Shown here: positions 3,367 to 22,773 of the stretch, in pieces | Layout: the number at the start of each line of letters is the position of its first letter | Numbering within the stretch: the first letter of the stretch is position 1 | Assembly (NCBI GenBank): GCA_038046385.1 | Contig: JBBSWH010000005.1 | Span: 468 to 32,467 of the forward strand | Direction of reading: 5' to 3' | Length of the DNA: 32,000 nucleotides | Source: Nanobdellota archaeon | Lineage (GTDB): Archaea; Nanobdellota; Nanobdellia; Woesearchaeales; GW2011-AR4 | The notes under the pieces: generated by a model | What the model saw: the letters and a program-made list of their open reading frames with translations, nothing else | The model's database searches: none | Told to the model about the DNA's origin: nothing | Translations under genes and position numbers: made by a program

Positions 3367-4158
3367 ATGTTCTACCACAACATAGACCCGGTTTTGCTCG
3401 GAATCGGAATTTTTCAGATTAGATACTATGGGCTTTTTTATGCAGCAGGATTCCTTATGCTATATTATCTTATGCCTTATCTTGCAAAGATTAAAGGGAT
3501 TAAGTTTACAAAAGATGACGCTGCTGATTTTCTGGTTTATGCGATAATTGGGGTAGTTGCCGGGGCAAGAGCAGGATATATCCTGTTTTATAATCTGCCA
3601 TTTTATTTACAGAATCCGCTCGATATACTTGCTGTCTGGAACGGCGGCCTGAGCTTCCACGGAGGGATTATCGGATTAGCTGTATCCACTTGGATTTTTT
3701 GCAGGGAAAAAAAAATAAATTTCTTTGACCTTGCAGACATAATTGTTGTGCCTGCTGCCCTTGCGCTTGCTCTTGGAAGAATGGGAAATTTCATGAACGC
3801 CGAGCTTTTTGGAAGAATAACCGATGTTTCATGGTGCATTGACTACTCAAAAAATGTTTTTGTGCAGGGATTGCCTGAAGGATGCAGGCACCCGTCTCAG
3901 ATTTATGCTTCTCTGAAGAACCTCGTTATATTCGGCGTTTTGTGGCGCATTAAAGACAGAAAACTGCCTTCCGGCTTTATGTTCTGGACTTTTGTTGCTT
4001 TATACGGGCTTCTTAGGACATTTATTGAGTTTTTCAGGCAGCCGGACGAGCAGGTTGGTTTTATTTTCCAATATTTCACAATGGGGCAGCTGCTTAGCTT
4101 TCCGCTTTTCCTTATAGGGATTTACATGCTTTATAGGTTAAAAAATAAATTCCAATGA
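3367..4158 (+). CDS. lgt: prolipoprotein diacylglyceryl transferase (Lgt), canonical signature
   Basis: N-terminal IRYYGLFYAAGF, LSFHGGIIG (the HGG motif) and GRMGNFMNAELFGR. The last matches the Lgt signature G-R-x-G-N-F-x-N-x-E-x-x-G. 263 aa, polytopic. Confidence 0.85.
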   Translation: MFYHNIDPVLLGIGIFQIRYYGLFYAAGFLMLYYLMPYLAKIKGIKFTKDDAADFLVYAIIGVVAGARAGYILFYNLPFYLQNPLDILAVWNGGLSFHGGIIGLAVSTWIFCREKKINFFDLADIIVVPAALALALGRMGNFMNAELFGRITDVSWCIDYSKNVFVQGLPEGCRHPSQIYASLKNLVIFGVLWRIKDRKLPSGFMFWTFVALYGLLRTFIEFFRQPDEQVGFIFQYFTMGQLLSFPLFLIGIYMLYRLKNKFQ

Positions 4159-4709
4159 AATTTTTAGGTGGCTTAAAACTAGATGCAGTAAAATATTCTT
4201 TAATTATTGTACTGAAAAGCCCCTTGCATATTTTCATTACTTTATTTGGGGGATTTATTATGATATCCTTTTCGATTTTGATTATGAACGCATCCTTGAT
4301 TCTAGACGGCATGTCTCCTGCATACACTATATTTGATAGAATTACTTTGGCTTTCAATCTTCTTGGCGGGCTTTTCACAAATAATTCTTTGCTTGGCGCA
4401 ATGCTTTTGATAACTGCATCATTGCTTTCAGGCCTGAATTTAGCATTGCTTTTCATCAAAATAAGGAATATAAAAAATGTCAGCTACAAGGAAAGCGGGT
4501 TAAGCTCCAGCGGCACGATTGCAAGCATAATGGCTTCTGGCTGCACATCCTGCGGAATAAGCATTTTATCAATTATTGGATTTGCAGGCATTCTGGCATT
4601 TTTGCCTTTCAATGGCTTGGAACTCGGATTCGCAGGAATTTTGCTGCTGCTGTTCTCTATTTATTGGAATTCAAAGAAATTTAAAAACTACAAAACCTGT
4701 AATGTTTAA
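4155..4709 (+). CDS. 4-TM membrane protein with intramembrane CxxC (GCTSCG), uncharacterised; paralog of 15726-16172
   Basis: ATGA start/stop overlap with lgt. Hydrophobic profile. The motif SSSGTIASIMASGCTSCGISILSIIGFAGILAFLPFNGLE aligns by eye with the 15726 product. Confidence 0.7.
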   Translation: MKFLGGLKLDAVKYSLIIVLKSPLHIFITLFGGFIMISFSILIMNASLILDGMSPAYTIFDRITLAFNLLGGLFTNNSLLGAMLLITASLLSGLNLALLFIKIRNIKNVSYKESGLSSSGTIASIMASGCTSCGISILSIIGFAGILAFLPFNGLELGFAGILLLLFSIYWNSKKFKNYKTCNV

Positions 4710-4713
4710 AGAT

Positions 4714-5490
4714 ATGGCCAAAAACAAAAAAAGAGCTGCTAGTGGATGGAGAAAATTAAAAATAAACGCATTTGCGATAACACTTTTTGTGATTATTATT
4801 TTGTCACTCTATATTTATTTTCTGAATGGACCATATATAAAAATGAATGGTAACTCTACAACAGAAAATCTGGAGCTTAAATCCAAGACAGACAGAAATG
4901 AAAATGCATTAATTGATGATGATGCCATCATGGGAAATGCTGATGCCCCTATAGCCATTATTGAGTTTGGCGACTTCATGTGCAAATTTTGCGGAGAATT
5001 GCACCGAGAAATTGAGCCAATCTGGAGGAAAGAATATATAGAGACAGGAAAGGCCAAGTATGTATTCAGAGATTTCGTATCAAGCGACCATCCTCAGGCA
5101 TACCCGGCTGCCGAGGCAAGCGAATGCGCAAATTTGCAGGGAAAGAAATGGCAGATGTATGACTTATTGTTTGACAATGCATATACTGGCGACAGCTGGG
5201 CAGGGATTAAAGACAGGGAAGCTCTTCTTAATATCTTCAAAAAATATGGAGAAAAAATAGGGCTGAACATGGAGCAATTCAGCCCATGCTTGTCAAATAA
5301 TTTCTTTGCCAATGAGATTAATAATGACATATTTGCCGGAGTAAGCACTGGAGTTTCAGGCACTCCGACCATTTTTATAGGCAATGACCAAACAGGATTT
5401 GCCAAAATTTTAGGATCTCAGCCTTATTCCGTCTACAAGCAGATTATAGATGAAAAATTAAACTGGAATTTGAGCAAAAGCAAAAAGTAA
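4714..5490 (+). CDS. membrane-anchored DsbA-like thiol:disulfide oxidoreductase
   Basis: MAKNKKRAASGWRKLK plus a TM anchor, then IAIIEFGDFMCKFCGELH (CxxC) and a late GTPTIF (cis-Pro loop). An alternative in-frame ATG lies at 4702. The track start at 4576 lies inside the previous gene. Confidence 0.8.
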   Translation: MAKNKKRAASGWRKLKINAFAITLFVIIILSLYIYFLNGPYIKMNGNSTTENLELKSKTDRNENALIDDDAIMGNADAPIAIIEFGDFMCKFCGELHREIEPIWRKEYIETGKAKYVFRDFVSSDHPQAYPAAEASECANLQGKKWQMYDLLFDNAYTGDSWAGIKDREALLNIFKKYGEKIGLNMEQFSPCLSNNFFANEINNDIFAGVSTGVSGTPTIFIGNDQTGFAKILGSQPYSVYKQIIDEKLNWNLSKSKK

Positions 5491-7366: not shown

Positions 7367-8041
7367 ATGGAAGAAGACACGTTTCGGATAAAAAAATCAT
7401 ATGCTTATGCAACGCTTGGGGTATTGCTGGCATTCGGATTTTTTATGTATTCGCTTGTGCTTAACAATAATAACATTTCTGCAACGCAAGGAACAAGGAT
7501 GATGAATGGCGATGCTAACACTGATTCGATGGCTGATCATCATAAGCCTGTTCAGGGAAAATCAAGCGGTTTTTTTGAGAGTGCAGTAGGAAAGCAGGCT
7601 CCTGAATTTGAACTGCAGGGCATTGAAGGAGCTGCTGTCAAATTAAGCGATTATAAAGGAAAAAATGTGATTTTGTTTTTCAGCGAAGGCAGCATGTGCT
7701 ATCCTTCGTGCTGGAATCAGATTGCAGCGCTTTCAAAGGATGAAAGATTAAATTCAGATGGCACAGTTGCACTGTCAATTGTTGTTGATTCGCCGGCGCA
7801 ATGGCAAAAAATAATGCAGAAAGCGCCTCAAATGGCAGAATCAAATATTCTTTTTGACACGGCCAAAAAAGCCTCATCGGATTATGATGTTATTTTCCTT
7901 GCATCTTCGATGCACAAGGGCTCTTATCCCGGGCACACTTATTTCATAATTGACGGGGAAGGAATAATACGATACACAAAAGATGATCCGTCAATGGCAA
8001 TAAGAAATGATGAGCTTGCTGCAGAATTGGCAAAACTTTGA
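7367..8041 (+). CDS. membrane-anchored AhpC/TSA (BCP/Prx-like) redoxin with Cx3C
   Basis: N-terminal TM anchor. APEFELQGIEGAAVKLSDYKGKNVILFFSEGSMCYPSCWNQIAAL resembles the Prx/BCP active-site region. Confidence 0.65.
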   Translation: MEEDTFRIKKSYAYATLGVLLAFGFFMYSLVLNNNNISATQGTRMMNGDANTDSMADHHKPVQGKSSGFFESAVGKQAPEFELQGIEGAAVKLSDYKGKNVILFFSEGSMCYPSCWNQIAALSKDERLNSDGTVALSIVVDSPAQWQKIMQKAPQMAESNILFDTAKKASSDYDVIFLASSMHKGSYPGHTYFIIDGEGIIRYTKDDPSMAIRNDELAAELAKL

Positions 8042-8050
8042 GGCTAATAA

Positions 8051-8911
8051 ATGGAACCGACATTCATAATAGCATCTTTTATCACAGCATTTGTTGCAGG
8101 AATAGCAGCATTGCTGGCTCCATGCTGCATAACTGTCCTGTTGCCAACTTACCTTAGCTCAATTTTCAGGCAGAAAAGAACCGTTGTTGCAATGACACTT
8201 GTTTTCTTTTTGGGACTGCTTGCCGTGTTTCTTCCGCTTGGGCTTGGATTTGCAAGCATCGGGACTTTGTTCAGCAAGAGCCATGACTGGCTTTTCATAG
8301 TTGGAGGAATTTTCCTATTAATGCTTGGAGCATCCATATTGCTGGGATTGCATTTTTCTTTATCATTTACAAAGCATCCGAAAACAAAAATAACAGGCGC
8401 GGTGTCTGTTTTCATTCTTGGAATATTTTCTGCTTTTGCAACGCTTTGCTGCGCCCCGGTTCTTGCAGGGGTCATGGCATTGTCTATACTGCCAGGCTCA
8501 ATTTTCTGGGGAGGTATGTACGCTCTTGCCTATGTTATCGGAATGATTACACCTTTGCTGCTGATAGCAGCATTCCTTGACAAATTTGATTTTACAAAGA
8601 AATTTGAGAAGCTAAGCCAAGGCGTGAATTACAGGATTGCCGGAAGAGAAGTCACAATAACAATTGCTGAAATGATTTCAGGAACGATGTTTTTATTGCT
8701 TGGAATCTTCATAATCTATCTTGCGCAGGCCGGCAAGCTTGCAATGGAAAACAGCGCTATGCAGACTTCCATAAATATTTTCATGAGCAATTTGACAGCA
8801 TCTATTAACAAATTCATTGCAGGAATGCCAACTATAGCCTGGATAGCCATTGCTGCCTTGCCGATTGCTGTGTTTTTGCTAAGAAAATTGAAAAGGAAAA
8901 CTTCAAAATGA
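8051..8911 (+). CDS. CcdA/DsbD-family thiol-disulfide transmembrane electron transporter-like protein
   Basis: About 6-8 TM segments. LLAPCCITVLLP in TM1 and ATLCCAPVLAG in a later TM give the two-repeat architecture of the DsbD/CcdA superfamily, but with vicinal Cys pairs. Confidence 0.65.
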   Translation: MEPTFIIASFITAFVAGIAALLAPCCITVLLPTYLSSIFRQKRTVVAMTLVFFLGLLAVFLPLGLGFASIGTLFSKSHDWLFIVGGIFLLMLGASILLGLHFSLSFTKHPKTKITGAVSVFILGIFSAFATLCCAPVLAGVMALSILPGSIFWGGMYALAYVIGMITPLLLIAAFLDKFDFTKKFEKLSQGVNYRIAGREVTITIAEMISGTMFLLLGIFIIYLAQAGKLAMENSAMQTSINIFMSNLTASINKFIAGMPTIAWIAIAALPIAVFLLRKLKRKTSK

Positions 8912-9672
8912 TTCCTTACAAGATAATTCCACCTTTGCAGATAGGTCCTTTTCATGTCAACATGTACGGGATTATGTTTGCGCTTGGAGCCTTCATTGCA
9001 ATCAAGATTGCTGCGAAGGAAGCCAGAAAAAGAAATGCAAAAGAAGATGTGATTCATGATATTGCTTTGTACCTTCTCTTTGGCGGCATTATAGGAGCAA
9101 GGCTTTTTTACGTTTTATTTTACTGGCCTAATGACGTGTCTTTTGATTTTTTCGATATTTTCAAAATATGGGAAGGTGGGCTTGCATTCTTTGGAGGGAT
9201 TATTGGAGCGATCATCGTAGGATACTACTACCTCAGAAAGCGCAATCTTAGTTTCTGGGCTTATGCGGACATTTTTACAATTCCCCTAATTATTGGCCAT
9301 ATATTTGGAAGAGCAGGGGATTACCTTACAGGAGGCCACCCAGGAAAAATAACTAATTTGCCTTGGGCAATATACATGGATAATGCTTTAAGGCACCCGG
9401 TTGTTCTGTATGAGATAATTGGCCTTTTTGCAATCCTTGGAATAATCTATCTATTAAAGAAAAAAAGCCATTTTGATGGATTCTTGTTTTGGCCATATAT
9501 AACCTTGTATTCAATCCAAAGATTGTTTTTGGATATTTTCAGGGCAGAGTCTACGGACCCAAAATTTTTGGGATTAACTCCGTCTCAATATATCGCCCTG
9601 ATTATTGTTGCTGTTAGCTTGTATGCGATAGCACGATTTAAATATAAAAAAATTCAAACGGAGGCGGTATAA
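8908..9672 (+). CDS. Lgt-family paralog with diverged catalytic signature
   Basis: ATGA overlap with the CcdA-like gene. Lgt-like features are GPFHVNMYGIMFALGAF, GGIIGARLFYVLFYW and WEGGLAFFGGIIGA. The signature reads GRAGDYLTGGHPG instead of GRxGNFxNxExxG, and HGG is replaced by FGG. Confidence 0.7.
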   Translation: MIPYKIIPPLQIGPFHVNMYGIMFALGAFIAIKIAAKEARKRNAKEDVIHDIALYLLFGGIIGARLFYVLFYWPNDVSFDFFDIFKIWEGGLAFFGGIIGAIIVGYYYLRKRNLSFWAYADIFTIPLIIGHIFGRAGDYLTGGHPGKITNLPWAIYMDNALRHPVVLYEIIGLFAILGIIYLLKKKSHFDGFLFWPYITLYSIQRLFLDIFRAESTDPKFLGLTPSQYIALIIVAVSLYAIARFKYKKIQTEAV

Positions 9673-9890: not shown

Positions 9891-10349
9891 ATGGAACTCT
9901 CAAAAAGAGAAAAACGAAAGCTTAAGCTAGAGGGGCTAAGGCAGGAAAGCCACAAAGCACAACAGGAATTTGAGCAAAGAACTGAAAAGCAAAAACAATT
10001 TGAGCCAGAACAGAAAAAATCCAAATGGAAAATCTATGGTGCAATTGCAATAGCTATTATTATTGTGCTGATATCCTTTTCTGCTTATTCTGCAGCAAAA
10101 CCCGGGCGTTATGATAATTTTGCAAGGTGCCTTACTTCCAAAGGGGCTGTTGTTTATGGGGCAATAGACTGGTGCAAATACACACAGGCGCAAAGAGCGA
10201 TGTTTGGAAATTCTTGGAAATATTTAAATTATCAGGATTTTACAAAATTGCAGGGAATACGAAAAACACCAACGTGGGTTATAGGCGGCAAATGGTACGA
10301 AAACGTGCAGACGTTTGATAGATTGTCTGAATTAACCGGATGCAGATAA
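9891..10349 (+). CDS. membrane-anchored thioredoxin-like domain of the type fused to VKOR, with CxxT instead of CxxC
   Basis: Charged N-terminus plus a TM segment. FARCLTSKGAVVYGAIDWCKYTQAQRAMFG...KTPTWVIGGKWYENVQTFDRLSELTGC parallels the YGAxWCPHCxxQKxxFG...YPTWxI.G pattern. Confidence 0.6.
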   Translation: MELSKREKRKLKLEGLRQESHKAQQEFEQRTEKQKQFEPEQKKSKWKIYGAIAIAIIIVLISFSAYSAAKPGRYDNFARCLTSKGAVVYGAIDWCKYTQAQRAMFGNSWKYLNYQDFTKLQGIRKTPTWVIGGKWYENVQTFDRLSELTGCR

Positions 10350-10403: not shown

Positions 10404-10823
10404 ATGAATATGAAAAACCTCAAGGAAAAAATCATTGGAGCAACTGGAAGCGTTTCAGGCGCCGCAAGCGTGCTTGGATCGTGGCAGATATGCCACAGCG
10501 TGTGCCTTGGAATAATTGCGCTTCTTGGCCTTATAGGAATAACAATAATCGGCATGCCGCTTGAGTTTCTCACAAGGATTGCTATTCCGATGTGGACAAT
10601 AGCAGTTTTGCTCCTTATAACTACATTTATCCTTTACAAAACCAAAAAATGCATTTCAAAAAATATGGTGATAATGAATACAGGAATAATAATTGCAGGA
10701 ACGCCATTTGCTCAAGTACAGCAATTCTCTATATTCTTTTGGTTTTTTGGGGGGCTGATAGCTGCTTATGGAATATTTTTAATGATAAAAGAAAGAAGAG
10801 AAATGAAATGTCATGAAAACTGA
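10404..10823 (+). CDS. 4-TM membrane protein with intramembrane Cx3C (ICHSVC); distant relative of the 4155 and 15726 products
   Basis: GSVSGAASVLGSWQICHSVCLGIIALLGLIGITIIGMPLEFL has the same layout: a Gly/Ser turn, a Cys pair, a TM helix, then P-x-E. Confidence 0.6.
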   Translation: MNMKNLKEKIIGATGSVSGAASVLGSWQICHSVCLGIIALLGLIGITIIGMPLEFLTRIAIPMWTIAVLLLITTFILYKTKKCISKNMVIMNTGIIIAGTPFAQVQQFSIFFWFFGGLIAAYGIFLMIKERREMKCHEN

Positions 10824-11259
10824 CTATTTAATTTATGGATTACTGATAGCGGTGATTGCAATTGCAGCATACACTTTTGCAGGAATGGTTGATAATCAGC
10901 CGGCAGCTGCACCCAACATCCAAAATAATGCCCAAGGATTCGGGTTGATATCCACCGGCGGCACGGATGATGGAAATGTTCAGGTTGATTTAACGCCAAA
11001 AGGGATTGTTAATGGGCAATTTCTTGTTGATTTTGCGATTAACACGCATTCTGTTGACTTAAGCCAGCTTGACCTGAAAAAAATAACAACGCTGGAATAC
11101 AGCGGGAAAAAAATCCAGCCATTGTCTGCCCCTGCATTAAGCGGGCATCACAACTCAGGCATAATTGCTTTTAACAGCGTTTCTGATTTAAAAAATTTCA
11201 AGATAACAATTGTTGGAATCCCCAACATTGAAGAAAGAGTTTTTGAGTGGAAATCCTAA
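10813..11259 (+). CDS. membrane-anchored exported protein with a GHH motif, unknown function
   Basis: 11-nt overlap with the previous gene. N-terminal TM anchor, then a beta-rich region: VDLTPKGIVNGQFLVDFAINTHSVDL...LSAPALSGHHNSGIIAF. Confidence 0.55.
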   Translation: MKTDYLIYGLLIAVIAIAAYTFAGMVDNQPAAAPNIQNNAQGFGLISTGGTDDGNVQVDLTPKGIVNGQFLVDFAINTHSVDLSQLDLKKITTLEYSGKKIQPLSAPALSGHHNSGIIAFNSVSDLKNFKITIVGIPNIEERVFEWKS

Positions 11260-11261
11260 AA

Positions 11262-12836
11262 ATGAGGAATATAAATTTAAATCATAAAATTGCAGTAATT
11301 ATGATAGTTTCTCTGCTCATAATATTGACCGCCTGCAGCCAGACTGATGATTCAATGCCTAATCATATGATGCCTATAAAAGAGATTTCTGAAGTGAAGC
11401 CGATTGGCAGAAGCGTTTCCGGGCTGGGAGAAGCAGAGCAATCAAGAATTGTTGAGTTAAAGGATAATCAAGCGTTTCAAATGGAAGCTAAGCCTATTGC
11501 CAAAGACATAAATGGCAATAAAATAATGATGTATGCTTACAATGGCCAGATGCCTGGCCCTTTGATAAAAGCAAAACAGGGCAGCTTAATTTATGTTAAT
11601 TTTACAAACAACATCGATATGGAAACAACAATCCATTGGCACGGAATAAGGTTAGATAACAAATTTGACGGTGTTGATGGGGCAAGCCAGAAGCCTGTGA
11701 AGCCAGGGGAAAGCTTTCTTTATGAAATCAGGCTTCCAGACGAAGGAATTTACTGGTATCATCCGCACATAAGGGAAGATTTGCAACAGGAACTTGGTTT
11801 GTATGGCAATATCTTAGTTGAGCCAAAAGACAAGGATTATTTCAATAAAGTGGATAATGAAATTGCTTTATTTTTGGATGACATAAAAATGAATGGCAAT
11901 GATATCGAGCCATTCAACAGCCAGTTTGCAACATTCACAATAATGGGCAGGTTTGGAAATGTGATGCTTGTGAATGGGGAAACGTACTATAGATTAAATG
12001 CAAATAAAGGAGAATCTGTAAGATTTTATTTGACTAATTCTGCAAACATAAGGACATTTAATTTTATGATTGGAGATCATAAGCTGAAGGTTGTAGGAAG
12101 CGATTCTGGCAAATATGAAAAAGAATCTATTGCCAACTCCATTATAATCTCTCCAGGTGAAAGATATACTGCAGAAGTTCTTTTTGACAAAGCAGGAATT
12201 TTCAAAATTATCCATAGAACTCCCAATAAAGACTACATTCTTGGAGAGGTTATTGTCAACGAAGCTTCTGGAAGTGTTAATGATGAATTTTATGAATTAA
12301 AGGAAAATGAAGAGATTAAGAGCTCAATAGCGCCCTTTAGAAGATATTTTTCTTCTGAGCCAGATTATATTTTCAATCTAGAAATAAATCAAGAATCTAT
12401 GGGGAAGATGGAAAGCAGAGCCAGCAATGAAGGCATAGAATGGGAAGACACGGGGCATGATGAAATGATGAATTCCATGTCGACAGCCAACAATGTAAGA
12501 TGGATGATTGTTGATGCTTTGACCGGCAAGGCAAATATGGACAATAATTACAAAGTTAAAGCTGGAGACATCAAAAAAATAAGATTTGTTAACGACAAAG
12601 ATTCCATGCACCCGATGCAACATCCAATGCATTTGCACGGGCAAAAGTTCCTTGTTTTAAGTGTTGACGGAGTTGAAAATGAAAATTTAGGATGGAAAGA
12701 CACTGTCCTTGTCCCTACGGGAAAAAATGTGGATATACTTATTGAGTTTTCAAACCCTGGAGAATGGATGCTCCACTGCCATATTGCAGAGCATCTTGAA
12801 GCCGGAATGGCAACAATGTTCACGGTCTCACAATAA
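11262..12836 (+). CDS. multicopper oxidase (laccase/CueO-like), lipoprotein
   Basis: All four MCO copper motifs are present: TIHWHGI, YWYHPHI, HPMHLHG and HCHIAEHLEAGM. Lipobox ILTAC. The track start at 11247 is a GTG inside the previous gene, and the first ATG is at 11262. Confidence 0.9.
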   Translation: MRNINLNHKIAVIMIVSLLIILTACSQTDDSMPNHMMPIKEISEVKPIGRSVSGLGEAEQSRIVELKDNQAFQMEAKPIAKDINGNKIMMYAYNGQMPGPLIKAKQGSLIYVNFTNNIDMETTIHWHGIRLDNKFDGVDGASQKPVKPGESFLYEIRLPDEGIYWYHPHIREDLQQELGLYGNILVEPKDKDYFNKVDNEIALFLDDIKMNGNDIEPFNSQFATFTIMGRFGNVMLVNGETYYRLNANKGESVRFYLTNSANIRTFNFMIGDHKLKVVGSDSGKYEKESIANSIIISPGERYTAEVLFDKAGIFKIIHRTPNKDYILGEVIVNEASGSVNDEFYELKENEEIKSSIAPFRRYFSSEPDYIFNLEINQESMGKMESRASNEGIEWEDTGHDEMMNSMSTANNVRWMIVDALTGKANMDNNYKVKAGDIKKIRFVNDKDSMHPMQHPMHLHGQKFLVLSVDGVENENLGWKDTVLVPTGKNVDILIEFSNPGEWMLHCHIAEHLEAGMATMFTVSQ

Positions 12837-14208: not shown

Positions 14209-14415
14209 ATGACAAAATACAATATTTCAATACAGGGAATGCACTGCAAGAGCTGCAAAATGCTTGTAGATGACATTTTGTGCGATTCTGGCGCAAAATC
14301 AATAAAAATAGAAGTTGATGATAAGAAAAAAATTGGAAAAGCCTCCTTTGAATTTTCGGGGAATTTTAATGAGCTTAAAAAAGAAATAGAAAGCAACGGA
14401 TATAAGGTGAAGTAA
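14209..14415 (+). CDS. copZ: heavy-metal-associated (HMA) copper chaperone, CopZ-like
   Basis: 68 aa. ISIQGMHCKSCK contains the MxCxxC motif. Confidence 0.8.
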   Translation: MTKYNISIQGMHCKSCKMLVDDILCDSGAKSIKIEVDDKKKIGKASFEFSGNFNELKKEIESNGYKVK

Positions 14416-15341
14416 TGCACGTTAAAGTTTACTGCCCGGACATTGAATGCGATTCCTGCGCAAGGCTCCTTAAAAGGAGTTTTGAGAAAGCTGAAGGAAT
14501 TGTAAAATTTGAAATAAACAAAGAATCAATTGATTTTGAGTACAACCGTGGCGAATCAAGCGTCGAGATGATTCTTAAAATAATACGCAGCAAGGGATTC
14601 AGGGCTTCGCTTGAGCCGTTTATAAGAAAAAATTTTAAGGAGCGCTTGAGGGACTTCAGGGAAAACAAAAGCAAGTATGAGCTGGAATACAGAATGCTGA
14701 ATTATTTGTTGTTTAACCTGTTTTGCCTGCTTGTTTTTAATGCAGCAGTATATCTTATTTTTTTAAAAAATGTGCCTGATTTTCTCCAGAGATACGGCTG
14801 GTGGGCATTTTATACTATGATTTCAATAGCAAGCATAGGCACTGCAATGTGGCACTTCAGGTCATACAAAGGCGAAGTGACTTCAATGACCGGGATGATG
14901 ATCGGGATGACATTCGGCATGCAGACCGGGCTTATGATTGGGACGATAATAGGGGCAACAAACGGAATTTTTATAGGAAGCATGGCCGGGATGCTATCAG
15001 CAGTCATTGTCGGGATTTACAACGGCAAATGCTGCGGAATTATGGGTATTCTTGAAGGAGTTATGGCAGGGCTGATGGGCGGGACAATGGGAGGCATGAT
15101 AGGGGTCATGATGTTCGCAGACCATATACTCTGGTTCATGCCGTTTTTCTTTTTGATAAATATTGCAGTAATGCTTGGCCTTTCTTACATGCTGTTTGAA
15201 GAATTTGTCGAAGACAATGAAAAAACCAAAAAAGATGAAGTCAAGCTGTGGAAGCTGATTGCAGCCAGCATAATAGTAATGGCTGTTTTTCTGGTGATTA
15301 TGGTTTATGCCCCAAAGTCCGGGCTGGCAAGAGTGATTTAA
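14415..15341 (+). CDS. fusion of an atypical HMA-like domain to a Gly/Met-rich polytopic membrane domain (unknown family)
   Basis: TAATG overlap with copZ. The N-terminus VKVYCPDIECDSCARLLKRSFEKAEGI is ferredoxin-like HMA. The C-terminus reads MTGMMIGMTFGMQTGLMIGTIIGATNGIFIGSMAGM...NGKCCGIMGILEGVMAGLMGGTMGGMIGVMMF. Confidence 0.65.
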   Translation: MHVKVYCPDIECDSCARLLKRSFEKAEGIVKFEINKESIDFEYNRGESSVEMILKIIRSKGFRASLEPFIRKNFKERLRDFRENKSKYELEYRMLNYLLFNLFCLLVFNAAVYLIFLKNVPDFLQRYGWWAFYTMISIASIGTAMWHFRSYKGEVTSMTGMMIGMTFGMQTGLMIGTIIGATNGIFIGSMAGMLSAVIVGIYNGKCCGIMGILEGVMAGLMGGTMGGMIGVMMFADHILWFMPFFFLINIAVMLGLSYMLFEEFVEDNEKTKKDEVKLWKLIAASIIVMAVFLVIMVYAPKSGLARVI

Positions 15342-15713
15342 ATGAAAAAAACAGCCTTATTGTTTTTCCTTGCCATATTTATCACGGCATGCTCTTCCAA
15401 TGCGCCAATCTCTCCCCAGTCTTCTAATTCAGAAGCAAAAATTGTAGACGGAATGCAGGCCATAACACTAAGCTGGGGGAAATTCAATTATGAGCCTGCA
15501 ACGATGAAATTCAAGCTGGGAGTTCCTGCAAGAATCTACGGAGACCTTACAAGACTGCAGGGCTGCTTCAGATCTTTTGAGATTCCTGAACTAGGAGTTT
15601 CTACGGTTTTTTCCCAAAGAAAAAATTATGTTGATTTTATGCCTGATCAAGAAGGAAGATTCACGTTTGCATGCTCCATGGGAATGGGCAGCGGCACAAT
15701 AATAGTCGAATAA
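15342..15713 (+). CDS. cupredoxin-like lipoprotein
   Basis: Lipobox FITAC. ATMKFKLGVPARIYGD...FEIPELGV...DQEGRFTFACSMGMGSGTIIVE resembles the small cupredoxin_1-type domains found beside copA genes. Confidence 0.5.
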   Translation: MKKTALLFFLAIFITACSSNAPISPQSSNSEAKIVDGMQAITLSWGKFNYEPATMKFKLGVPARIYGDLTRLQGCFRSFEIPELGVSTVFSQRKNYVDFMPDQEGRFTFACSMGMGSGTIIVE

Positions 15714-15725
15714 TAGCTGAATAAA

Positions 15726-16172
15726 ATGAAAATAATCTTCAAAAAGCCTTATTTATACTGGACATTCGGAATATTTTTTGGATATTTCTTATTGAATGCC
15801 TACCTAAGCGATTTTTTTTATGACATGAAGTTTATCGGGTACTACCTGGAGACTATAAACTGGGGCAAATTTGTTATTAGCGTATCTTTGTCTGTTTTAA
15901 TTGCTGCTCTTGTGGCGGCAAATGCAGTATACCTTTACATAAGGTATAAAGAGCATAAAAATCTCAAAGTTGAGGGAACCCTGGCCTGTGCAGGAACTTT
16001 TGGTGGATTGGCAACCGGGGTCTGTTCAATATGCGCTGCAGGAATCCTTCCATTTATGCTTGATTTAATGGGAATCTCATTCACTTTTGGAACGCTTCCA
16101 TTGAAAGGAATTGAAATCCAGATTTTGACTGCTGCATTATTATTTGCCGGCTTGTGGGGGATAAAAAAATGA
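15726..16172 (+). CDS. 4-TM membrane protein with intramembrane CxxC (VCSICA); paralog of 4155-4709
   Basis: LACAGTFGGLATGVCSICAAGILPFMLDLMGISFTFGTLPLKGIE. ATGA overlap with the copA ATG at 16169. Confidence 0.7.
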   Translation: MKIIFKKPYLYWTFGIFFGYFLLNAYLSDFFYDMKFIGYYLETINWGKFVISVSLSVLIAALVAANAVYLYIRYKEHKNLKVEGTLACAGTFGGLATGVCSICAAGILPFMLDLMGISFTFGTLPLKGIEIQILTAALLFAGLWGIKK

Positions 16173-18358
16173 AAAAAGAAGTAACTTTCTCTATAAGGGG
16201 GATGCACTGCGCCAGCTGCTCAAACATAATCACAAGGGCACTAACCAAAACTGAAGGAGTTGAGAGTGCAGTTGTAAATTATTCTACGGAAAAGGCAAAT
16301 GTGACTTTTGACGGAAATATTTTAGAAGAAGATTTGATAAAAATAATAGAGAAAAAAGGCTACAAAGCCTCAGTAGCAAAAGATTTGCAGCAGGAAAAGA
16401 AAAAGAAACTTGAAGAGATTCTGTCATTAAAGAAAAGTTTTCTCATAAGCCTTGTTTTGTCATTGCCGGCTTTTCTGATTGGAATGATATTTATGGAAGA
16501 CGGCATGCTTTATTTTGGAATTATGGTGCCTTATGCAGTTATAATACTTTTTTTGCTTTCCACACCGGTGCAATTTTGGATTGGATGGAGATTCTACAAA
16601 GGAACCTTTGCAGCGCTTAAGAACAAAAACGCAAACATGGACAGCCTCATTGCAATAGGAACAAGCGCGGCTTATTTCTACAGCGTTTATTCAGTTTTCG
16701 TTTTGAAAAGCGACGTCCAGTATTTTGAAGTGAGCGCGGTCCTTATAACATTTGTAATGATGGGCAAGTGGCTGGAAGCAAGAGCCAAAGGCAAGATGTC
16801 GGAAGCAATTGAAAAGCTAATTTCACTATCGCCGAAAACTGCAATTGTTGTAAAAAAAGGAAAAGAAGTGAAAGTGAGCGTCGATGAGTTAGCTGCAGGA
16901 GATATCATAATAGTAAAGCCAGGAGAAAAAATACCGGTTGACGGAATAATAACAGAAGGCAATTCATCAATTGACGAAAGCATGGTCACAGGGGAAAGCA
17001 TACCGATTGACAAGGCAAAAGGGAGTTTAGTAATTGGAGGGACCCTTAACAAACACGGGTCATTCAGGTTCAAGGCAACCAAAGTGGGGGCTGACACTAC
17101 ATTATCGCATATAATCAAATTGATAGAGGATGCACAAGCCAAAAAAGCCCCAATACAGAGGTTTGCTGACAATGTTTCGTCTTATTTTGTCCCTATTGTT
17201 ATTGTTATTTCTATTGTGACTTTTGCAGTCTGGTATTACCTATTGTCTTCTACATTTACATTTGCACTTATCAATGCAGTGTCTGTTCTTGTGATAGCCT
17301 GCCCATGCGCTTTGGGACTGGCGACGCCGACTGCAATACTTGTCGGAACCGGCCTTGGAGCAAAACAAGGCATTCTGATAAAAGGAGGGGATTCTCTGGA
17401 AAATGCGCACAAAGTCAGGCACGTGATTTTTGACAAAACAGGCACTATCACAAAAGGCAAGCCGGAAGTGACTGACATAATATCCTTAAAATCCGGCGAG
17501 AAGGAGATAATACAGATTGCAGCAAGCATGGAAAAAAATTCCGAGCATTCGCTTGCAGAATCAATCCTTAATAAGGCAAAATTGATGAACCTTAAGCTGG
17601 ATAGTCCGTCTGGTTTTTTAGCAATTTCAGGCAAAGGCATAACCGCTTCAGTCAAAAACAAAAAGTATTATCTTGGGAACAGCAAGCTGGTCAAAAAAAG
17701 CCTGTCAAATGAAATTAAAAATAAGATAAATTCTTTGCAGGATCAGGGAAAAACTGTGGTGATGCTTGCTTCTGATAAGAATGTGCTTGGAATCATTGCA
17801 ATTGCAGACACAATAAAAGATTCAGCAGTTGAGACGATAAAACAGCTGCATTCAATGAAAATAGAGACGTATATGATAACCGGAGACAATGAAAGGGCGG
17901 CAAAGGCGATAGCCAAACAAGTCGGAATCAAAAATGTATTTGCAGAGGTAATGCCAAAGGACAAAAGTGATTATGTGAAAAAACTCCAGAAAAAGGGGAA
18001 AGTTGCAATGGTGGGGGACGGGATTAATGACGCTCCTGCGCTGGCACAGGCAGATATCGGGATTGCAATGGGTTCCGGAACAGATGTTGCGATTGAAACT
18101 GGAAACATTGTTCTGATGAGAAACGATTTGATGGATGTGCCTGCTGCATTCAGGTTAAGCAGGATTACAATGTCAAAAATAAAGCAGAACATGTTCTGGG
18201 CGATGTTTTACAATGTGATGGGGATTCCGATTGCAGCAGGAGTTTTATATCCGCTTACCGGAATGCTTTTATCCCCCATGCTTGCAGGAGGGGCAATGGC
18301 ATTAAGCTCAGTCAGCGTTGTGACAAACTCATTATTATTAAAAAATAAGAGATTGTAG
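16169..18358 (+). CDS. copA: copper-translocating P1B-type ATPase
   Basis: HMA motif GMHCASCS, transmembrane CPCALGLATP, phosphorylation site DKTGTIT, MITGDN and GDGINDAPAL. The track start at 16154 lies inside the previous gene, and the ATG at 16169 forms an ATGA overlap. Confidence 0.93.
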   Translation: MKKEVTFSIRGMHCASCSNIITRALTKTEGVESAVVNYSTEKANVTFDGNILEEDLIKIIEKKGYKASVAKDLQQEKKKKLEEILSLKKSFLISLVLSLPAFLIGMIFMEDGMLYFGIMVPYAVIILFLLSTPVQFWIGWRFYKGTFAALKNKNANMDSLIAIGTSAAYFYSVYSVFVLKSDVQYFEVSAVLITFVMMGKWLEARAKGKMSEAIEKLISLSPKTAIVVKKGKEVKVSVDELAAGDIIIVKPGEKIPVDGIITEGNSSIDESMVTGESIPIDKAKGSLVIGGTLNKHGSFRFKATKVGADTTLSHIIKLIEDAQAKKAPIQRFADNVSSYFVPIVIVISIVTFAVWYYLLSSTFTFALINAVSVLVIACPCALGLATPTAILVGTGLGAKQGILIKGGDSLENAHKVRHVIFDKTGTITKGKPEVTDIISLKSGEKEIIQIAASMEKNSEHSLAESILNKAKLMNLKLDSPSGFLAISGKGITASVKNKKYYLGNSKLVKKSLSNEIKNKINSLQDQGKTVVMLASDKNVLGIIAIADTIKDSAVETIKQLHSMKIETYMITGDNERAAKAIAKQVGIKNVFAEVMPKDKSDYVKKLQKKGKVAMVGDGINDAPALAQADIGIAMGSGTDVAIETGNIVLMRNDLMDVPAAFRLSRITMSKIKQNMFWAMFYNVMGIPIAAGVLYPLTGMLLSPMLAGGAMALSSVSVVTNSLLLKNKRL

Positions 18359-21612: not shown

Positions 21613-22773
21613 ATGAAAAAGTCAATTTTTGTTTTGTTTATTATTTCTGTGTTTTTGCTTGCAGCATGCTCGCAAACTGAGCAGGCGCAGCAGCCGGCGC
21701 AGGATACGCAGGGCTCATATAAAATAGGGGTCATGGCTCCTTTGACAGGGGACGCAGCTTCTGTTGGCCTGCCAATCCAGAAGGCATTAAAGATTGCTTT
21801 TGATGAGGTAAATGCAAAAGGCGGAGTCAACGGAAAAAAGCTTGAGCCTATTTACGAGGACAGCAAGTGCAATCCAAAGGATGGAAACGCAGCAGCCCAG
21901 AAGCTTATCAGCGTTGATAATGTTAAAGTCATAATAGGAGGAGTATGCTCTGGAGAGACTCTTGGAGCAGCGCCGATAACAGAAGCCAATAAAGTTTTGC
22001 TTATATCTCCAAGCGCAACTTCACCGGATATAACCAAAGCAGGAGATTTTGTTTTCAGGACTGCTCCGAGCGATGCTTATGCCGGAGCGGTTGCATCTGA
22101 TTATGCATTCAATGAATTAAATTCAAGGAAAGCAGCCATAATATCAGAAAACACTGACTATGCACAGGGCTTGAAAAGAGTATTTGCAGAAAACTTTGTC
22201 AAGCTTGGCGGAGAAATTGTTGCTGATGAAACATACAATCCGGAAGACGCTGATTTCAGGACACAGGTTACAAAAGTCAAGGCAGCCGGACCTAATGTGA
22301 TATACATTGTTCCTCAGACTCCTCCAAAGGGAATTTTGCTTATTAAGCAGATTAGGGAAGCAGGAGTTACTGCACAGCTTGTAACAGCTGAAGTTTTGAT
22401 AGGAAGGAATGTTGTCAAGGAAAACTGGGCAGACATGGAAGGCCTTATAGGAATTGAACAGAAGTTTGATGAGAAAGGAACAAAGGCAGCTGCACTGCTT
22501 GCAAAGTACAGGCAGCAGACAAATGAAGAAGCCCCATTCCCCGGATACATGGCCGGCGCTTATGACATTGTATACCTGATTGCAGACGCAATTGCAAAGA
22601 ACGGCTACGACAGCGAAGCATTGAAAAATTATTTCTATGCTATTGAGGATTATAACGGTGCTGCCGGAAAGATTACAATGGACCAGAACGGAGATCCGAT
22701 AATGGAGTACTCTGTGCAGCAGGTAAAGAACGGCGTTGTAGTTCCGGCACAGGCAACTCCGAGCAAGGGATAA
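21613..22773 (+). CDS. ABC transporter substrate-binding lipoprotein, branched-chain amino acid (LivJ/K) family
   Basis: Lipobox LLAAC. YKIGVMAPLTGDAASVGLPIQKALKIAFDEVNAKGGVNGKKLE...DSKCNPKDGNAAAQKLI is the classic type I periplasmic-binding-protein (Leu/Ile/Val) N-terminus. Confidence 0.85.
   Translation: MKKSIFVLFIISVFLLAACSQTEQAQQPAQDTQGSYKIGVMAPLTGDAASVGLPIQKALKIAFDEVNAKGGVNGKKLEPIYEDSKCNPKDGNAAAQKLISVDNVKVIIGGVCSGETLGAAPITEANKVLLISPSATSPDITKAGDFVFRTAPSDAYAGAVASDYAFNELNSRKAAIISENTDYAQGLKRVFAENFVKLGGEIVADETYNPEDADFRTQVTKVKAAGPNVIYIVPQTPPKGILLIKQIREAGVTAQLVTAEVLIGRNVVKENWADMEGLIGIEQKFDEKGTKAAALLAKYRQQTNEEAPFPGYMAGAYDIVYLIADAIAKNGYDSEALKNYFYAIEDYNGAAGKITMDQNGDPIMEYSVQQVKNGVVVPAQATPSKG

What the first reader, a model, noticed from the sequence alone, without database searches (positions are those of the whole stretch)
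4155..5490. Recurrent small membrane protein with an intramembrane Cys pair, here wedged between Lgt and a DsbA-like oxidoreductase
Three proteins in this window share a family-like layout. The 184-aa product of 4155-4709 reads ..SSSGTIASIMASGCTSCGISILSIIGFAGILAFLPFNGLELGFAGILLLLF... It aligns by eye with the 148-aa product of 15726-16172 (..LACAGTFGGLATGVCSICAAGILPFMLDLMGISFTFGTLPLKGIEIQILTAALLF..). It aligns more distantly with the 139-aa product of 10404-10823 (..GSVSGAASVLGSWQICHSVCLGIIALLGLIGITIIGMPLEFL..). The shared layout is four predicted TM helices, a Gly/Ser-rich turn, a Cys pair at the start of a TM helix, then a conserved P-x-x-G/E-x-E.

I cannot place it in DsbB, VKOR, CcdA/DsbD or MerT/MerC. 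Every copy is operonic with an exported Trx-fold or copper protein. This copy has an ATGA overlap with lgt and is followed by a DsbA-like gene. The second sits next to a VKOR-type Trx domain. The third has an ATGA overlap with copA.

No DsbB or VKOR gene is visible in a cluster that has at least five exported Trx-fold proteins. This family is therefore the obvious candidate for their missing membrane redox partner. Alternatively it could be a thiolate-lined Cu(I) conduit.
Basis: partly seen in the sequence, partly recalled or inferred. Interest (0 to 1): 0.72.

Follow-up and report, generated by a model that had tools for sequence, protein, structure and literature searches.

The report
Unclassified CxxC membrane partner of DsbA
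A small four-helix membrane protein with two cysteines buried in the membrane belongs to a large, unnamed family of ultra-small bacteria (CPR) and archaea (DPANN) that is almost always encoded right next to a DsbA-type disulfide enzyme inside copper-defence gene clusters, making it a strong candidate for a new kind of membrane partner for that enzyme.

Summary
The ORFs are real. Proteins A (4155-4709) and B (15726-16172) are true homologues. The third protein, C (10404-10823), is not: it belongs to a separate, large Woesearchaeota family.

A and B define an uncurated family:
- It has at least 1,609 clusters at 50% identity, from CPR bacteria and DPANN archaea.
- It has no Pfam, NCBIfam or PDB-sequence match.
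- A confident AlphaFold model (pLDDT 84) has no Foldseek match to any solved structure.

The invariant residues are C-x-x-C inside TM3 (outer leaflet) and P-x-x-G-x-E before TM4. Most members, including A, also have a cytoplasmic C-terminal Cys.

Across 51 full-length loci, 78% carry a DsbA/BdbD-type gene. It is usually immediately upstream with a 0-10 bp gap, and its active site is mostly CPFC. In addition, 73% carry copper genes (CopA, multicopper oxidase, CsoR, YtkA, cupredoxin). B-type members lack the C-terminal Cys and sit in a conserved trio of HMA-membrane protein, cupredoxin and B, near CopA.

My best reading (about 0.45) is a membrane thiol-disulfide partner that recycles the co-encoded DsbA-like protein. 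A Mer-like Cu(I) thiolate relay (about 0.35) is not excluded. The lgt adjacency is incidental. No literature describes the family.

The parts
4155..4709 (+). Protein A (184 aa): member of the new four-TM CxxC family, major (DsbA-linked) type with a C-terminal Cys
   Evidence: CPR-only HMM E=2.3e-32. AlphaFold pLDDT 83.6 and pTM 0.76, with helices 23-44, 79-109, 116-140 and 155-179. Homologues P0002-P0005. The NCBI annotation (149 aa) appears to start too late, because the conserved N-terminal VFxxPxY region lies upstream of it.
4542..4553 (+). Codons for the invariant C130-T-S-C133 of A
   Evidence: Invariant in 82 of 82 aligned members. Lies inside modelled helix 116-140.
4605..4622 (+). Codons for P151-F-N-G154-L-E156, the invariant P-x-x-G-x-E loop before TM4
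   Evidence: P, G and E are invariant in 82 of 82 members. The loop is poor in K/R and so predicted to be external.
4698..4700 (+). Codon for C182, the conserved C-terminal (predicted cytoplasmic) Cys
   Evidence: Present in 86 of 92 family genes scored for it. All five complete genes that lack it are B-type. The tail is rich in K/R.
4714..5490 (+). Membrane-anchored DsbA/BdbD-type thioredoxin-fold protein (active site CKFC), the conserved partner gene
   Evidence: Pfam Thioredoxin_4 E=1.5e-22 and DSBA E=1.9e-08. Closest solved structures are named DsbA, BdbD and DsbA-like oxidoreductase. The orthologous neighbour is found in 71 of 89 loci.
3367..4158 (+). Lgt homologue whose stop overlaps A's start (ATGA). 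The same operon here, but the adjacency is not conserved
   Evidence: Pfam LGT E=5.6e-75. Junction read. Lgt is found in only one other locus, and not adjacent there.
15726..16172 (+). Protein B (148 aa): paralogue of A, copper-linked subtype without the C-terminal Cys
   Evidence: BLASTP against A E=5e-06. CPR-only HMM E=1.1e-09. Homologues P0006-P0010.
14415..15341 (+). HMA-domain (CDSC) protein fused to a Met-rich membrane domain with a CC motif; first gene of the conserved trio that contains B
   Evidence: Weak HMA hit. Orthologues lie upstream of cupredoxin and B in L002, L003 and L008.
15342..15713 (+). Cupredoxin_1 protein with a lipobox-like N-terminus, directly upstream of B
   Evidence: Pfam Cupredoxin_1 E=2.2e-07. 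The same position is conserved in L002, L003 and L008, and the domain is fused into HMA-DsbD_2-cupredoxin proteins next to family genes in L023 and L054.
16169..18358 (+). CopA-type Cu(I) P-type ATPase; its ATG overlaps B's stop (ATGA)
   Evidence: Pfam E1-E2_ATPase, HMA and Hydrolase. Junction read.
10404..10823 (+). Protein C (139 aa): NOT a member. A separate conserved Woesearchaeota/Nanoarchaeia family (CHxxC in the first TM plus a KKC motif), paired with the overlapping 148-aa ORF 10813-11259
   Evidence: More than 214 homologues, none with a Pfam domain. Alignment A2. hhalign probability <=8% against A/B. Conserved pairing and copper context.

Best explanation
Protein A, and the major clade of its family, is the dedicated membrane partner of the co-transcribed, membrane-anchored DsbA/BdbD-type oxidoreductase.

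It is a four-helix membrane protein with both termini in the cytoplasm. Its C-x-x-C lies in the outer-leaflet part of TM3, next to an invariant Glu at the external end of TM4.

I infer that this Cys pair exchanges electrons with the partner's CPFC/CKFC active site and so recycles the partner. It would then play the role that DsbB/BdbC, VKOR or MauE (as oxidants) or DsbD/ScsB (as reductants) play elsewhere, but with an unrelated fold.

The operon belongs to copper-stress islands. The pair therefore most likely maintains extracytoplasmic thiol/disulfide status when copper is present, as the Scs system does.

Shown: family membership, the conserved motifs, the modelled helices, and the conserved gene pairing and copper context. 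Predicted from charge bias, the model and fusions: the membrane topology. Inferred: the direct thiol-disulfide exchange, its direction, and the electron source or sink.
For: 1. The gene pairing is tight and widely conserved. A DsbA-like gene is present in 71 of 89 loci, and in 40 of 51 full-length loci. It is adjacent on the same strand to a family gene 73 times; in 61 of those it lies immediately upstream, with gaps mostly 0-10 bp or overlapping. The pairing also holds in DPANN homologues at 38-53% identity, in either gene order.
2. The partner is a standard oxidoreductase. It matches Pfam Thioredoxin_4 and DSBA, its active site is mostly CPFC, and its closest solved relatives are named DsbA, BdbD and DsbA-like oxidoreductase. 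From established knowledge, such enzymes depend on a separately encoded and often adjacent DsbB/BdbC or VKOR.
3. C-x-x-C is invariant in 82 of 82 members, with an invariant Glu nearby. The model has four long TM helices. Positive-inside statistics, and fusions that add one more TM before a Cys-rich outer domain, place the CxxC side towards the outside.
4. No DsbB or VKOR gene was found in the window or in the 88 related loci. One locus has a MauE fusion.
5. The field recognises unfilled gaps. Only DsbB, VKOR and MauE are known, and about 20% of surveyed species lack all three (10.64898/2026.03.05.709764).
6. A Cu-induced pair of a DsbA-like protein and a membrane partner has a precedent in ScsC/ScsB (PMC10907172).
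Against: - There is no second, exposed Cys pair to shuttle electrons between a buried CxxC and DsbA, as DsbB and VKOR have. The CxxC is modelled about 10 residues below the outer end of TM3, which would be hard for a folded DsbA domain to reach.
- No electron acceptor is evident. From general knowledge, CPR and DPANN organisms mostly lack quinones.
- B-type members keep the CxxC and the Glu but are linked to a cupredoxin, an HMA-membrane protein and CopA, with no Trx-fold partner. This fits a metal role better.
- About 20% of full-length loci have no DsbA-like gene.
- The local motif G-x-G-C-x-x-C resembles the HMA copper-binding loop. The only PDB profile hits with alignment A1 were ATP7B HMA domains, at a non-significant E=0.5-2.
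- I could not test whether the same genomes encode VKOR or DsbB elsewhere.
Confidence: 0.45

Rival explanations
1. The family is a Cu(I) thiolate relay or conduit, working like MerT/MerC/MerF do for Hg(II). The intramembrane C-x-x-C, with Asn95, Glu156 and the Ser-x-Tyr of TM4, would bind Cu(I). It would exchange the metal with an extracytoplasmic Cys-bearing carrier: the DsbA-like protein for A-type members, or the cupredoxin lipoprotein for B-type members. On the cytoplasmic side the metal would pass to or from the C-terminal Cys (A-type) or the HMA-membrane protein and CopA (B-type). The purpose could be detoxification, sensing, or metallation of the co-encoded copper enzymes.
For: - Of 51 full-length loci, 37 carry CopA, a multicopper oxidase, a cupredoxin, YtkA or CsoR.
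- B is translationally coupled to copA. It sits in a conserved trio of HMA-membrane protein, cupredoxin and B.
- CPR members without a DsbA neighbour sit next to HMA-DsbD_2-cupredoxin fusions.
- The Cys pair is buried in a TM helix with no shuttle cysteines, and a cytoplasmic Cys lies on the tail. From memory, this is the Mer-transporter layout.
- The G-x-G-C-x-x-C motif resembles the HMA loop (weak hits).
- ScsC-type DsbA-fold proteins are described as Cu+-binding.
Against: - There is no HMM similarity to MerT, MerC or MerF, or to any metal transporter.
- No conserved Met or His is present, as is usual in Cu(I) pathways.
- Importing Cu(I) inside a resistance island has no obvious benefit.
- The very tight pairing with a canonical CPxC, DsbA-type oxidoreductase is more typical of redox pairs.
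Confidence: 0.35
2. The family is a sulfur or persulfide relay, or a thiosulfate-type carrier. The membrane Cys pair would pass sulfane sulfur between an extracytoplasmic rhodanese or DsbA-like protein and the cytoplasm.
For: In the DPANN A-type loci, rhodanese or DUF1573-rhodanese genes lie directly after the DsbA-like/family gene pair. Rhodanese is found in 11 of 89 loci. A YgaP-like TM gene is present in the island.
Against: Rhodanese is present in only about 12% of loci. The dominant context is DsbA plus copper. No sulfur-metabolism enzymes are nearby.
Confidence: 0.05
3. The family has a non-catalytic role. It could be a membrane scaffold or assembly factor for the DsbA-like protein, or a sensor for the upstream BlaI/BlaR1-type or CsoR regulators, with the CxxC forming a structural disulfide or acting as a redox or copper switch.
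For: BlaR1-M56 (19 loci) and BlaI/CopY-type (13 loci) genes lie just upstream of the pair in CPR. Divergent paralogues keep the CxxC but lose P-x-x-G-x-E.
Against: The invariance of CxxC, P, G and E across bacteria and archaea at about 20-30% overall identity suggests an active site rather than a structural feature. The regulators are absent from most loci.
Confidence: 0.15

Closest known systems
DsbB/BdbC and VKOR (quinone-dependent reoxidases of DsbA)
   Same: A small helical membrane protein with four TM helices and an essential-looking CxxC on the extracytoplasmic half. It is encoded next to a DsbA/BdbD-type protein. From established knowledge, bdbD-bdbC and actinobacterial dsbA-vkor have the same synteny.
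   Different: No sequence or fold similarity. The CxxC lies inside TM3 rather than at a helix start or loop. There is no second loop Cys pair and no recognisable quinone site. From general knowledge, the host lineages lack quinones. A conserved cytoplasmic C-terminal Cys is present.
MauE (third disulfide-generating membrane protein, 2026 preprint 10.64898/2026.03.05.709764)
   Same: A non-DsbB, non-VKOR helical membrane protein paired with a Trx-fold partner (MauD). It works with a single Cys motif, showing that one Cys pair can suffice.
   Different: MauE uses a CXC in a periplasmic loop. No member hits Pfam MauE. A true MauE fusion occurs separately in one locus, L029.
ScsB/ScsC (and ScsA) copper-induced Dsb-like system; DsbD/CcdA
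   Same: A DsbA-fold protein plus a membrane Cys protein under copper control. The function links copper and thiol redox stress (PMC10907172). The cytoplasmic Cys could connect to cytoplasmic reductant. ScsA is likewise a small protein with a membrane-buried CX2C and unknown function.
   Different: No match to DsbD_TM or DsbD_2. The family has 4 TM helices rather than 6-8, and lacks the paired re-entrant Pro-Cys motifs. ScsA is predicted to have 2 TM helices with a lipobox, and no homology was detected in NCBIfam.
MerT/MerC/MerF mercury transporters
   Same: From memory: small membrane proteins with a Cys pair inside a TM helix in the outer leaflet, a cytoplasmic Cys acceptor, and an adjacent gene for an extracytoplasmic CxxC carrier (MerP). 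The Gly-rich sequence before the Cys pair resembles MerC by eye.
   Different: No HMM hit to the MerT or MerC Pfam or NCBIfam models. The Cys pair is in TM3, not TM1. There is a single cytoplasmic Cys, not a pair. The context is copper, not mercury, and no MerA or MerR is present.

Membership tests
DsbB (PF02600) | Profile-HMM match to the DsbB family | tested here: not met
   No hit at E<=1 for A or B, nor at E<=0.01 for 82 members. No PDB sequence hit.
DsbB (PF02600) | Four-helix bundle fold of DsbB with two extracytoplasmic Cys pairs (CxxC plus a loop pair) | tested here: not met
   Foldseek of the pLDDT-84 model against the PDB gives no hit at E<=0.001; the best hit has TM-score 0.29 and is unrelated. 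Only one conserved external-side Cys pair is present.
DsbB (PF02600) | Quinone-dependent reoxidation of DsbA | not testable with these tools
   Needs biochemistry or complementation.
VKOR (PF07884) | Profile-HMM match, a CxxC at the start of the last core TM helix, and a loop Cys pair | tested here: not met
   No Pfam hit and no Foldseek or PDB sequence hit. The CxxC lies in TM3, and loop 1 has no conserved Cys.
DsbD/CcdA (PF02683, PF13386) | Profile-HMM match, six or more TM helices, and two Pro-Cys re-entrant motifs | tested here: not met
   No hit. The family has four TM helices and one CxxC. True DsbD_TM and DsbD_2 proteins in neighbouring genes are detected readily by the same scan.
MerT / MerC (PF02411, PF03203) | Profile-HMM match | tested here: not met
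   No Pfam or NCBIfam hit for A, B or C at E<=1, nor for 82 members at E<=0.01.
MerT / MerC (PF02411, PF03203) | Cys pair in TM1 plus a cytoplasmic Cys pair; the mer operon context | tested here: not met
   The Cys pair is in TM3 and there is a single C-terminal Cys. The neighbours are DsbA-like and copper genes.
MauE / DoxX (PF07291, PF07681) | Profile-HMM match and a CXC loop motif | tested here: not met
   No hit. The scan does detect a genuine MauE domain in L029.
HMA domain (PF00403) | A ferredoxin-like beta-alpha-beta-beta-alpha-beta soluble fold with GMxCxxC | tested here: not met
   Only motif-level, non-significant hits to ATP7B HMA domains at E=0.5-2. The model is all-helical and membrane-embedded.
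New family defined here (A/B type) | About 150-190 aa with four TM helices; an invariant C-x-x-C in TM3 and P-x-x-G-x-E before TM4 | tested here: met
   Met by A and B. Not met by C.
New family defined here (A/B type) | Encoded next to a DsbA/BdbD-type gene (major clade), or next to HMA-membrane protein and cupredoxin genes (B clade) | tested here: met
   A is followed by the DsbA-like gene 4714-5490 after a 4-bp gap. B follows 14415-15341 and 15342-15713. The pattern is general.

The most novel reading that the evidence does not exclude
The family is a fourth class of DsbA-recycling membrane enzyme, structurally unrelated to DsbB, VKOR and MauE. It would be specific to CPR bacteria and DPANN archaea and would work without quinones. 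One possibility is that copper and the co-encoded multicopper oxidase serve as the electron sink to oxygen. Another is that it relays cytoplasmic reductant through its C-terminal Cys.
Probability: 0.3. Interest if true: 0.9.

Novelty: new variant of a known kind. Interest (0 to 1): 0.72.

Why it matters
How extracytoplasmic disulfides are made or repaired is unknown for a large share of prokaryotes. A 2026 survey found about 20% of species without DsbB, VKOR or MauE, and it left candidate phyla out altogether.

CPR and DPANN organisms together are a large part of microbial diversity. From general knowledge, they depend on surface proteins and pili for their host-attached lifestyle, and they generally lack quinones.

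This family has at least 1,600 clusters, is unannotated, has a new fold, and is nearly always fused into an operon with a DsbA-type gene. That gives a concrete, directly testable candidate for the missing partner in these lineages. If the copper-relay reading is right instead, it would be a new type of membrane copper handler tied to DsbA-fold and cupredoxin carriers.

Either way, the family deserves a curated model. Today every member is labelled as a hypothetical protein.

Tried and rejected
- **Three-member family.** Rejected for C by BLASTP, by hhalign with three profiles and by the CPR-only HMM. Only a weak local motif resemblance remains.
- **Membership in known families.** Pfam and NCBIfam scans of A, B, C and 82 family members gave nothing consistent. 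The SMK1, thiocillin, TOM13 and TgpA hits are sub-threshold noise from Cys- or TM-rich sequence.
- **Solved structures.** PDB sequence searches with the A1, A3 and A2 profiles gave nothing significant. Foldseek of the good model against the PDB gave nothing.
- **First structure model.** The model from 10 sequences was too poor to use (pLDDT 62). It was replaced by the 82-sequence model.
- **First genome scan.** The scan with alignment A3 failed because no stretch was conserved enough. It was repeated with A4.
- **Domain fusions as Rosetta stones.** Three fusions were found, but the fused Cys-rich domains match no Pfam model.
- **Lgt linkage.** Not conserved.
- **ORF 8051-8911 as a clear CcdA.** Only weak evidence.
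- **Literature.** Searches for CPR/DPANN with DsbA and copper, and for DUF3105, found nothing relevant.
- **Not possible here.** I could not inspect model coordinates (depth of the CxxC, or the Glu-to-Cys distance), run multimer prediction, or scan whole genomes for VKOR, DsbB or MauE.
Full report
**1. What is in the window**

The window comes from a DPANN archaeon. NCBI names the proteins 'MAG: Nanoarchaeota archaeon', and their close relatives are Woesearchaeota. All three ORFs named in the finding exist as described.

The region from 2.5 to 18.7 kb is a plus-strand island of exported redox and copper genes:
- two Lgt homologues;
- a DsbA-like protein;
- two AhpC/TSA-type Trx proteins;
- a multicopper oxidase;
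- a YgaP-like TM protein;
- an ArsR regulator;
- an HMA-membrane protein;
- a cupredoxin;
- CopA.

I read the gene junctions directly:
- The lgt stop and A's start overlap as ATGA (4155-4158).
- A's stop (4707-4709) lies 4 bp before the DsbA-like ATG at 4714.
- B's stop overlaps the copA ATG (16169-16172).
- C starts 54 bp after the Trx-like remnant 9891-10349.

**2. Are the three proteins one family?**

A and B are homologous:
- BLASTP gives E=5e-06.
- They align along their full length with their own homologues and share N95, G120, C130-x-x-C133, L150-P151, G154 and E156.
- As an independent test, I built an HMM from 26 CPR bacterial sequences only. It hits A at E=2.3e-32 and B at E=1.1e-09, and no other ORF segment in the window.

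C is not a member:
- BLASTP gives E=0.07-1.
- hhalign probability is <=8% with three profile pairs, and the aligned regions are inconsistent.
- C belongs to a separate, strongly conserved family with more than 214 hits at about 55-90% identity to C. Its invariant motifs are GSWQxCHxxCLG, GMPL, KKCIS and AGxPF.

The C-family HMM does rank A (E=0.031) and B (E=0.88) as its best non-self hits in the window, both at the Cys segment. A local resemblance exists, but homology is not shown.

**3. The A/B family**

An exhaustive HMMER search of 1.84 billion representatives, using the A/B profile, found 1,609 proteins at E<=1e-3 and 776 at E<=1e-10.

Across 82 aligned members the invariant positions are C130, C133, P151, G154 and E156. 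The consensus is G-[IV]-G-C-[AS]-x-C-G-[ST] ... [LF]-P-[FL]-x-G-x-E.

Most members, including A, end in K-K-I-x-x-P-x-V-C. This C-terminal Cys is present in 86 of the 92 family genes scored for it. All five complete genes that lack it are B-type. Divergent second copies in two loci keep G-C-x-x-C but lose P-x-x-G-x-E.

No curated model covers the family:
- Pfam and NCBIfam give nothing for A, B or any of the 82 members.
- PDB sequence searches are empty.
- Every source name is 'hypothetical protein'.

A scan of GTDB species genomes with a single peptide pattern confirmed 206 loci. Most of the 80 returned carry Patescibacteria/CPR names. Many are labelled 'uncultured Gammaproteobacteria', which I take to be unreliable bin labels. 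Other subgroups are DPANN, for example Pacearchaeota.

**4. Structure and topology**

With 82 sequences, AlphaFold gives pLDDT 83.6 and pTM 0.76. The helices are:
- 9-21;
- 23-44 (TM1);
- 46-52 and 59-76 (an external loop with helices);
- 79-109 (TM2);
- 116-140 (TM3, with the CxxC at 130-133);
- 144-148;
- 155-179 (TM4, with E156 at its external end).

Confidence is lowest (69-78) around residues 110-150. An earlier, shallow model broke the helix at G129-C130, so the local geometry of the CxxC is uncertain.

Family-wide K+R counts make the N-terminus (2.6), loop 2 (3.6) and the C-terminal tail (3.0) cytoplasmic. Loop 1 and the LPFxGxE loop are then external.

Three natural fusions add one more TM after the C-terminal Cys, followed by a Cys-rich domain. 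This is consistent with a cytoplasmic tail. The fused domains match no Pfam model.

Foldseek against 350,542 PDB chains found no hit at E<=0.001, and the best TM-score was 0.29. The fold is therefore not recognisably that of DsbB, VKOR, CcdA or MerF.

**5. Genomic context**

I called genes in 89 loci (the window, 8 DPANN loci and 80 CPR loci) and clustered the neighbours of the family genes.

| Neighbour | Loci | Usual position relative to the family gene |
|---|---|---|
| DsbA-like protein (Pfam Thioredoxin_4/DSBA) | 68 | 57 members at -1 on the same strand |
| DUF1573-multicopper oxidase | 27 | +1 to +3 |
| CopA | 23 | varied |
| DUF3105 | 23 | mostly +1 |
| BlaR1-type M56 peptidase | 19 | -2 |
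| BlaI/CopY-type repressor | 13 | -3 |
| YtkA | 11 | +1 to +3 |
| CsoR | 7 | +1 to +3 |

Details of the DsbA-like pairing:
- It is adjacent on the same strand to a family gene 73 times: 61 in the order DsbA then family gene, and 12 in the reverse order.
- The gaps are mostly 0-10 bp or overlapping.
- The first C-x-x-C is CPFC in 57 of the 85 cluster members. It is CKFC in the window.

By tblastn, which does not depend on gene calling, 71 of 89 loci have the DsbA-like gene. Of the 51 full-length loci, 40 have it and 37 have at least one copper gene.

The DPANN A-type homologues P0004 (53% identity) and P0005 (38% identity) also sit beside a DsbA-like gene, in both gene orders, followed by rhodanese-type genes.

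B-type homologues sit in a conserved trio of HMA-membrane protein, Cupredoxin_1 and B, with CopA nearby. Two CPR members without a DsbA neighbour lie directly upstream of an HMA-DsbD_2-Cupredoxin_1 fusion.

Lgt adjacency is not conserved. No DsbB or VKOR was seen in any locus. One locus has an HMBD-MauE fusion.

**6. The partner protein**

The window's DsbA-like protein has a K/R-rich N-terminus followed by a TM anchor, so its Trx domain is extracytoplasmic (sequence).

Its closest solved relatives are:
- 3F4R/S/T, which I recall as Wolbachia alpha-DsbA1;
- the DsbA entries 4PWO and 4PWP, which I recall as Corynebacterium;
- B. subtilis BdbD (3EU3);
- the 'Disulfide bond protein A' entries 3BCI, 3BD2 and 3BCK, which I recall as S. 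aureus DsbA.

From established knowledge, these are disulfide oxidases. BdbD and the actinobacterial enzymes are reoxidised by BdbC or VKOR, which are encoded nearby.

**7. Mechanism**

The conserved, translationally coupled pairing of a four-TM CxxC protein with a DsbA/BdbD-type protein mirrors the known dsbA-dsbB, bdbD-bdbC, dsbA-vkor and mauD-mauE pairs. My best-supported explanation is therefore a membrane thiol-disulfide partner that recycles the DsbA-like protein (confidence 0.45).

The copper-regulon context resembles the Cu-induced ScsC/ScsB system (PMC10907172). The cytoplasmic C-terminal Cys would suit a reductant relay. The partner's oxidase-type relatives would suit an oxidant role. 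The direction is unresolved.

Four observations argue against this explanation:
- The CxxC is buried.
- No second Cys pair is available to shuttle electrons.
- No acceptor is evident in lineages that, from general knowledge, lack quinones.
- B-type members keep the active-site residues but have only copper partners.

These points favour the main rival (0.35). In that reading, a Mer-like Cu(I) thiolate relay exchanges metal with an external Cys-bearing carrier (the DsbA-fold protein or the cupredoxin) and with a cytoplasmic acceptor (the C-terminal Cys, the HMA domain or CopA).

Two minor rivals remain: a persulfide relay (0.05; rhodanese is in only 11 of 89 loci) and a scaffold or sensor role (0.15).

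**8. Novelty**

No paper in the searchable library describes the family. A 2026 preprint states that only DsbB, VKOR and now MauE are known, that about 20% of surveyed species lack all three, and that candidate phyla were removed from its analysis.

The kind of system, a DsbA-type protein plus a membrane Cys partner in a copper context, is known. The membrane component is a new family with an unmatched fold. I therefore rate it as a new variant of a known kind, with interest 0.72.

Noticed in passing
window 10404-11259: Protein C and the overlapping 148-aa ORF (10813-11259) form a conserved gene pair in Woesearchaeota/Nanoarchaeia copper islands, beside multicopper oxidase, CopA, DUF302, DUF411 and YgaP-TM genes. 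C's family has more than 214 members and no Pfam domain. Its invariant motifs are GSWQxCHxxCLG in the first TM, GMPL, KKCIS and AGxPF. By eye its N-terminal segment resembles MerC TM1, but no HMM supports this.
   Followed up: partly
window 3367-4158 and 8908-9672: This DPANN archaeal window encodes two Lgt (prolipoprotein diacylglyceryl transferase) homologues that are 29% identical to each other. Several exported proteins have lipobox-like N-termini, for example the cupredoxin 15342-15713 (…FITACSS), the multicopper oxidase 11247-12836 (…ILTACSQ) and the ABC substrate-binding protein 21613-22773 (…LLAACSQ). From general knowledge, bacterial-type Lgt is unusual in archaea.
   Followed up: no
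window 8051-8911 (with 7367-8041): A 286-aa membrane protein with the motifs APCC…LLP and LCCAP sits directly after an AhpC/TSA-type Trx gene and overlaps lgt2. It has no Pfam hit. The only signals are a weak local match to a DsbD_TM protein (E=0.003) and a weak match to an NCBIfam DsbD-fusion model (E=0.083). It may be a very divergent CcdA/DsbD-like reductant transporter, which would mean the island is not entirely without a membrane redox protein.
   Followed up: partly
window 14415-15341; L002 4651-5568; L008 1039-1785: An HMA domain (CDSC) is fused to a Met/Gly-rich membrane domain (TGMMIGM…, with a CC motif) that matches no Pfam model. It is conserved as the first gene of the trio of HMA-membrane protein, cupredoxin and B. 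It is a candidate new copper permease or chaperone.
   Followed up: partly
window 9891-10349: A membrane-anchored Trx-like remnant. Pfam matches only the C-terminal part of Thioredoxin_4, at E=0.039. By eye it has a single Cys (WCKYT) where a CxxC would be expected. No homologue was found in the other loci.
   Followed up: partly
window 4155-4709: The NCBI annotation of this gene (P0001, 149 aa) starts 35 codons downstream of the ATG at 4155. The conserved N-terminal VFxxPxY segment and TM1 lie upstream of the annotated start, so the 184-aa ORF whose start overlaps the lgt stop is the better model.
   Followed up: yes
L024 3974-5125, L044 4004-5149, L083 1329-2813: In these natural fusions the family domain is followed by one more TM helix and a Cys-rich domain, presumably extracytoplasmic, with motifs such as GSCCSPMN…GPCCCKCWRW or RPCCGNS…PDCNHG. 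These domains match no Pfam model.
   Followed up: partly
L002 2058-2507, L011 7650-8117, L058 6616-7074: Another recurrent small (about 150 aa) multi-TM protein has C-A-I-C in its first TM and a C-terminal CC motif. In L011 and L058 it lies directly after DUF411-DsbD_TM fusion proteins. It has no Pfam match.
   Followed up: partly
L004 2113-2583, L008 2246-2653, L082 3341-3940: Second copies of the family lie in the same operon as the first. The L004 and L008 copies are divergent: they keep G-C-x-x-C, replace LPxxGxE with YFxPxxP, and have an extra Cys in the cytoplasmic loop. The L082 copy keeps LPxxGxE. This suggests a wider superfamily, or heteromeric pairs.
   Followed up: partly
CPR loci L009-L088 (e.g. 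L037, L059): In CPR bacteria the operon commonly reads: BlaI/CopY-type repressor, BlaR1-type M56 peptidase, DsbA-like gene, family gene, DUF3105, DUF1573-multicopper oxidase, CopA. DUF3105 lies at +1 in 20 loci and has no literature.
   Followed up: partly
L029 5370-5993: A heavy-metal-binding domain (HMBD) fused to a MauE domain lies near a family gene in one CPR locus. This is notable because MauE has recently been reported as a disulfide-generating membrane protein.
   Followed up: no
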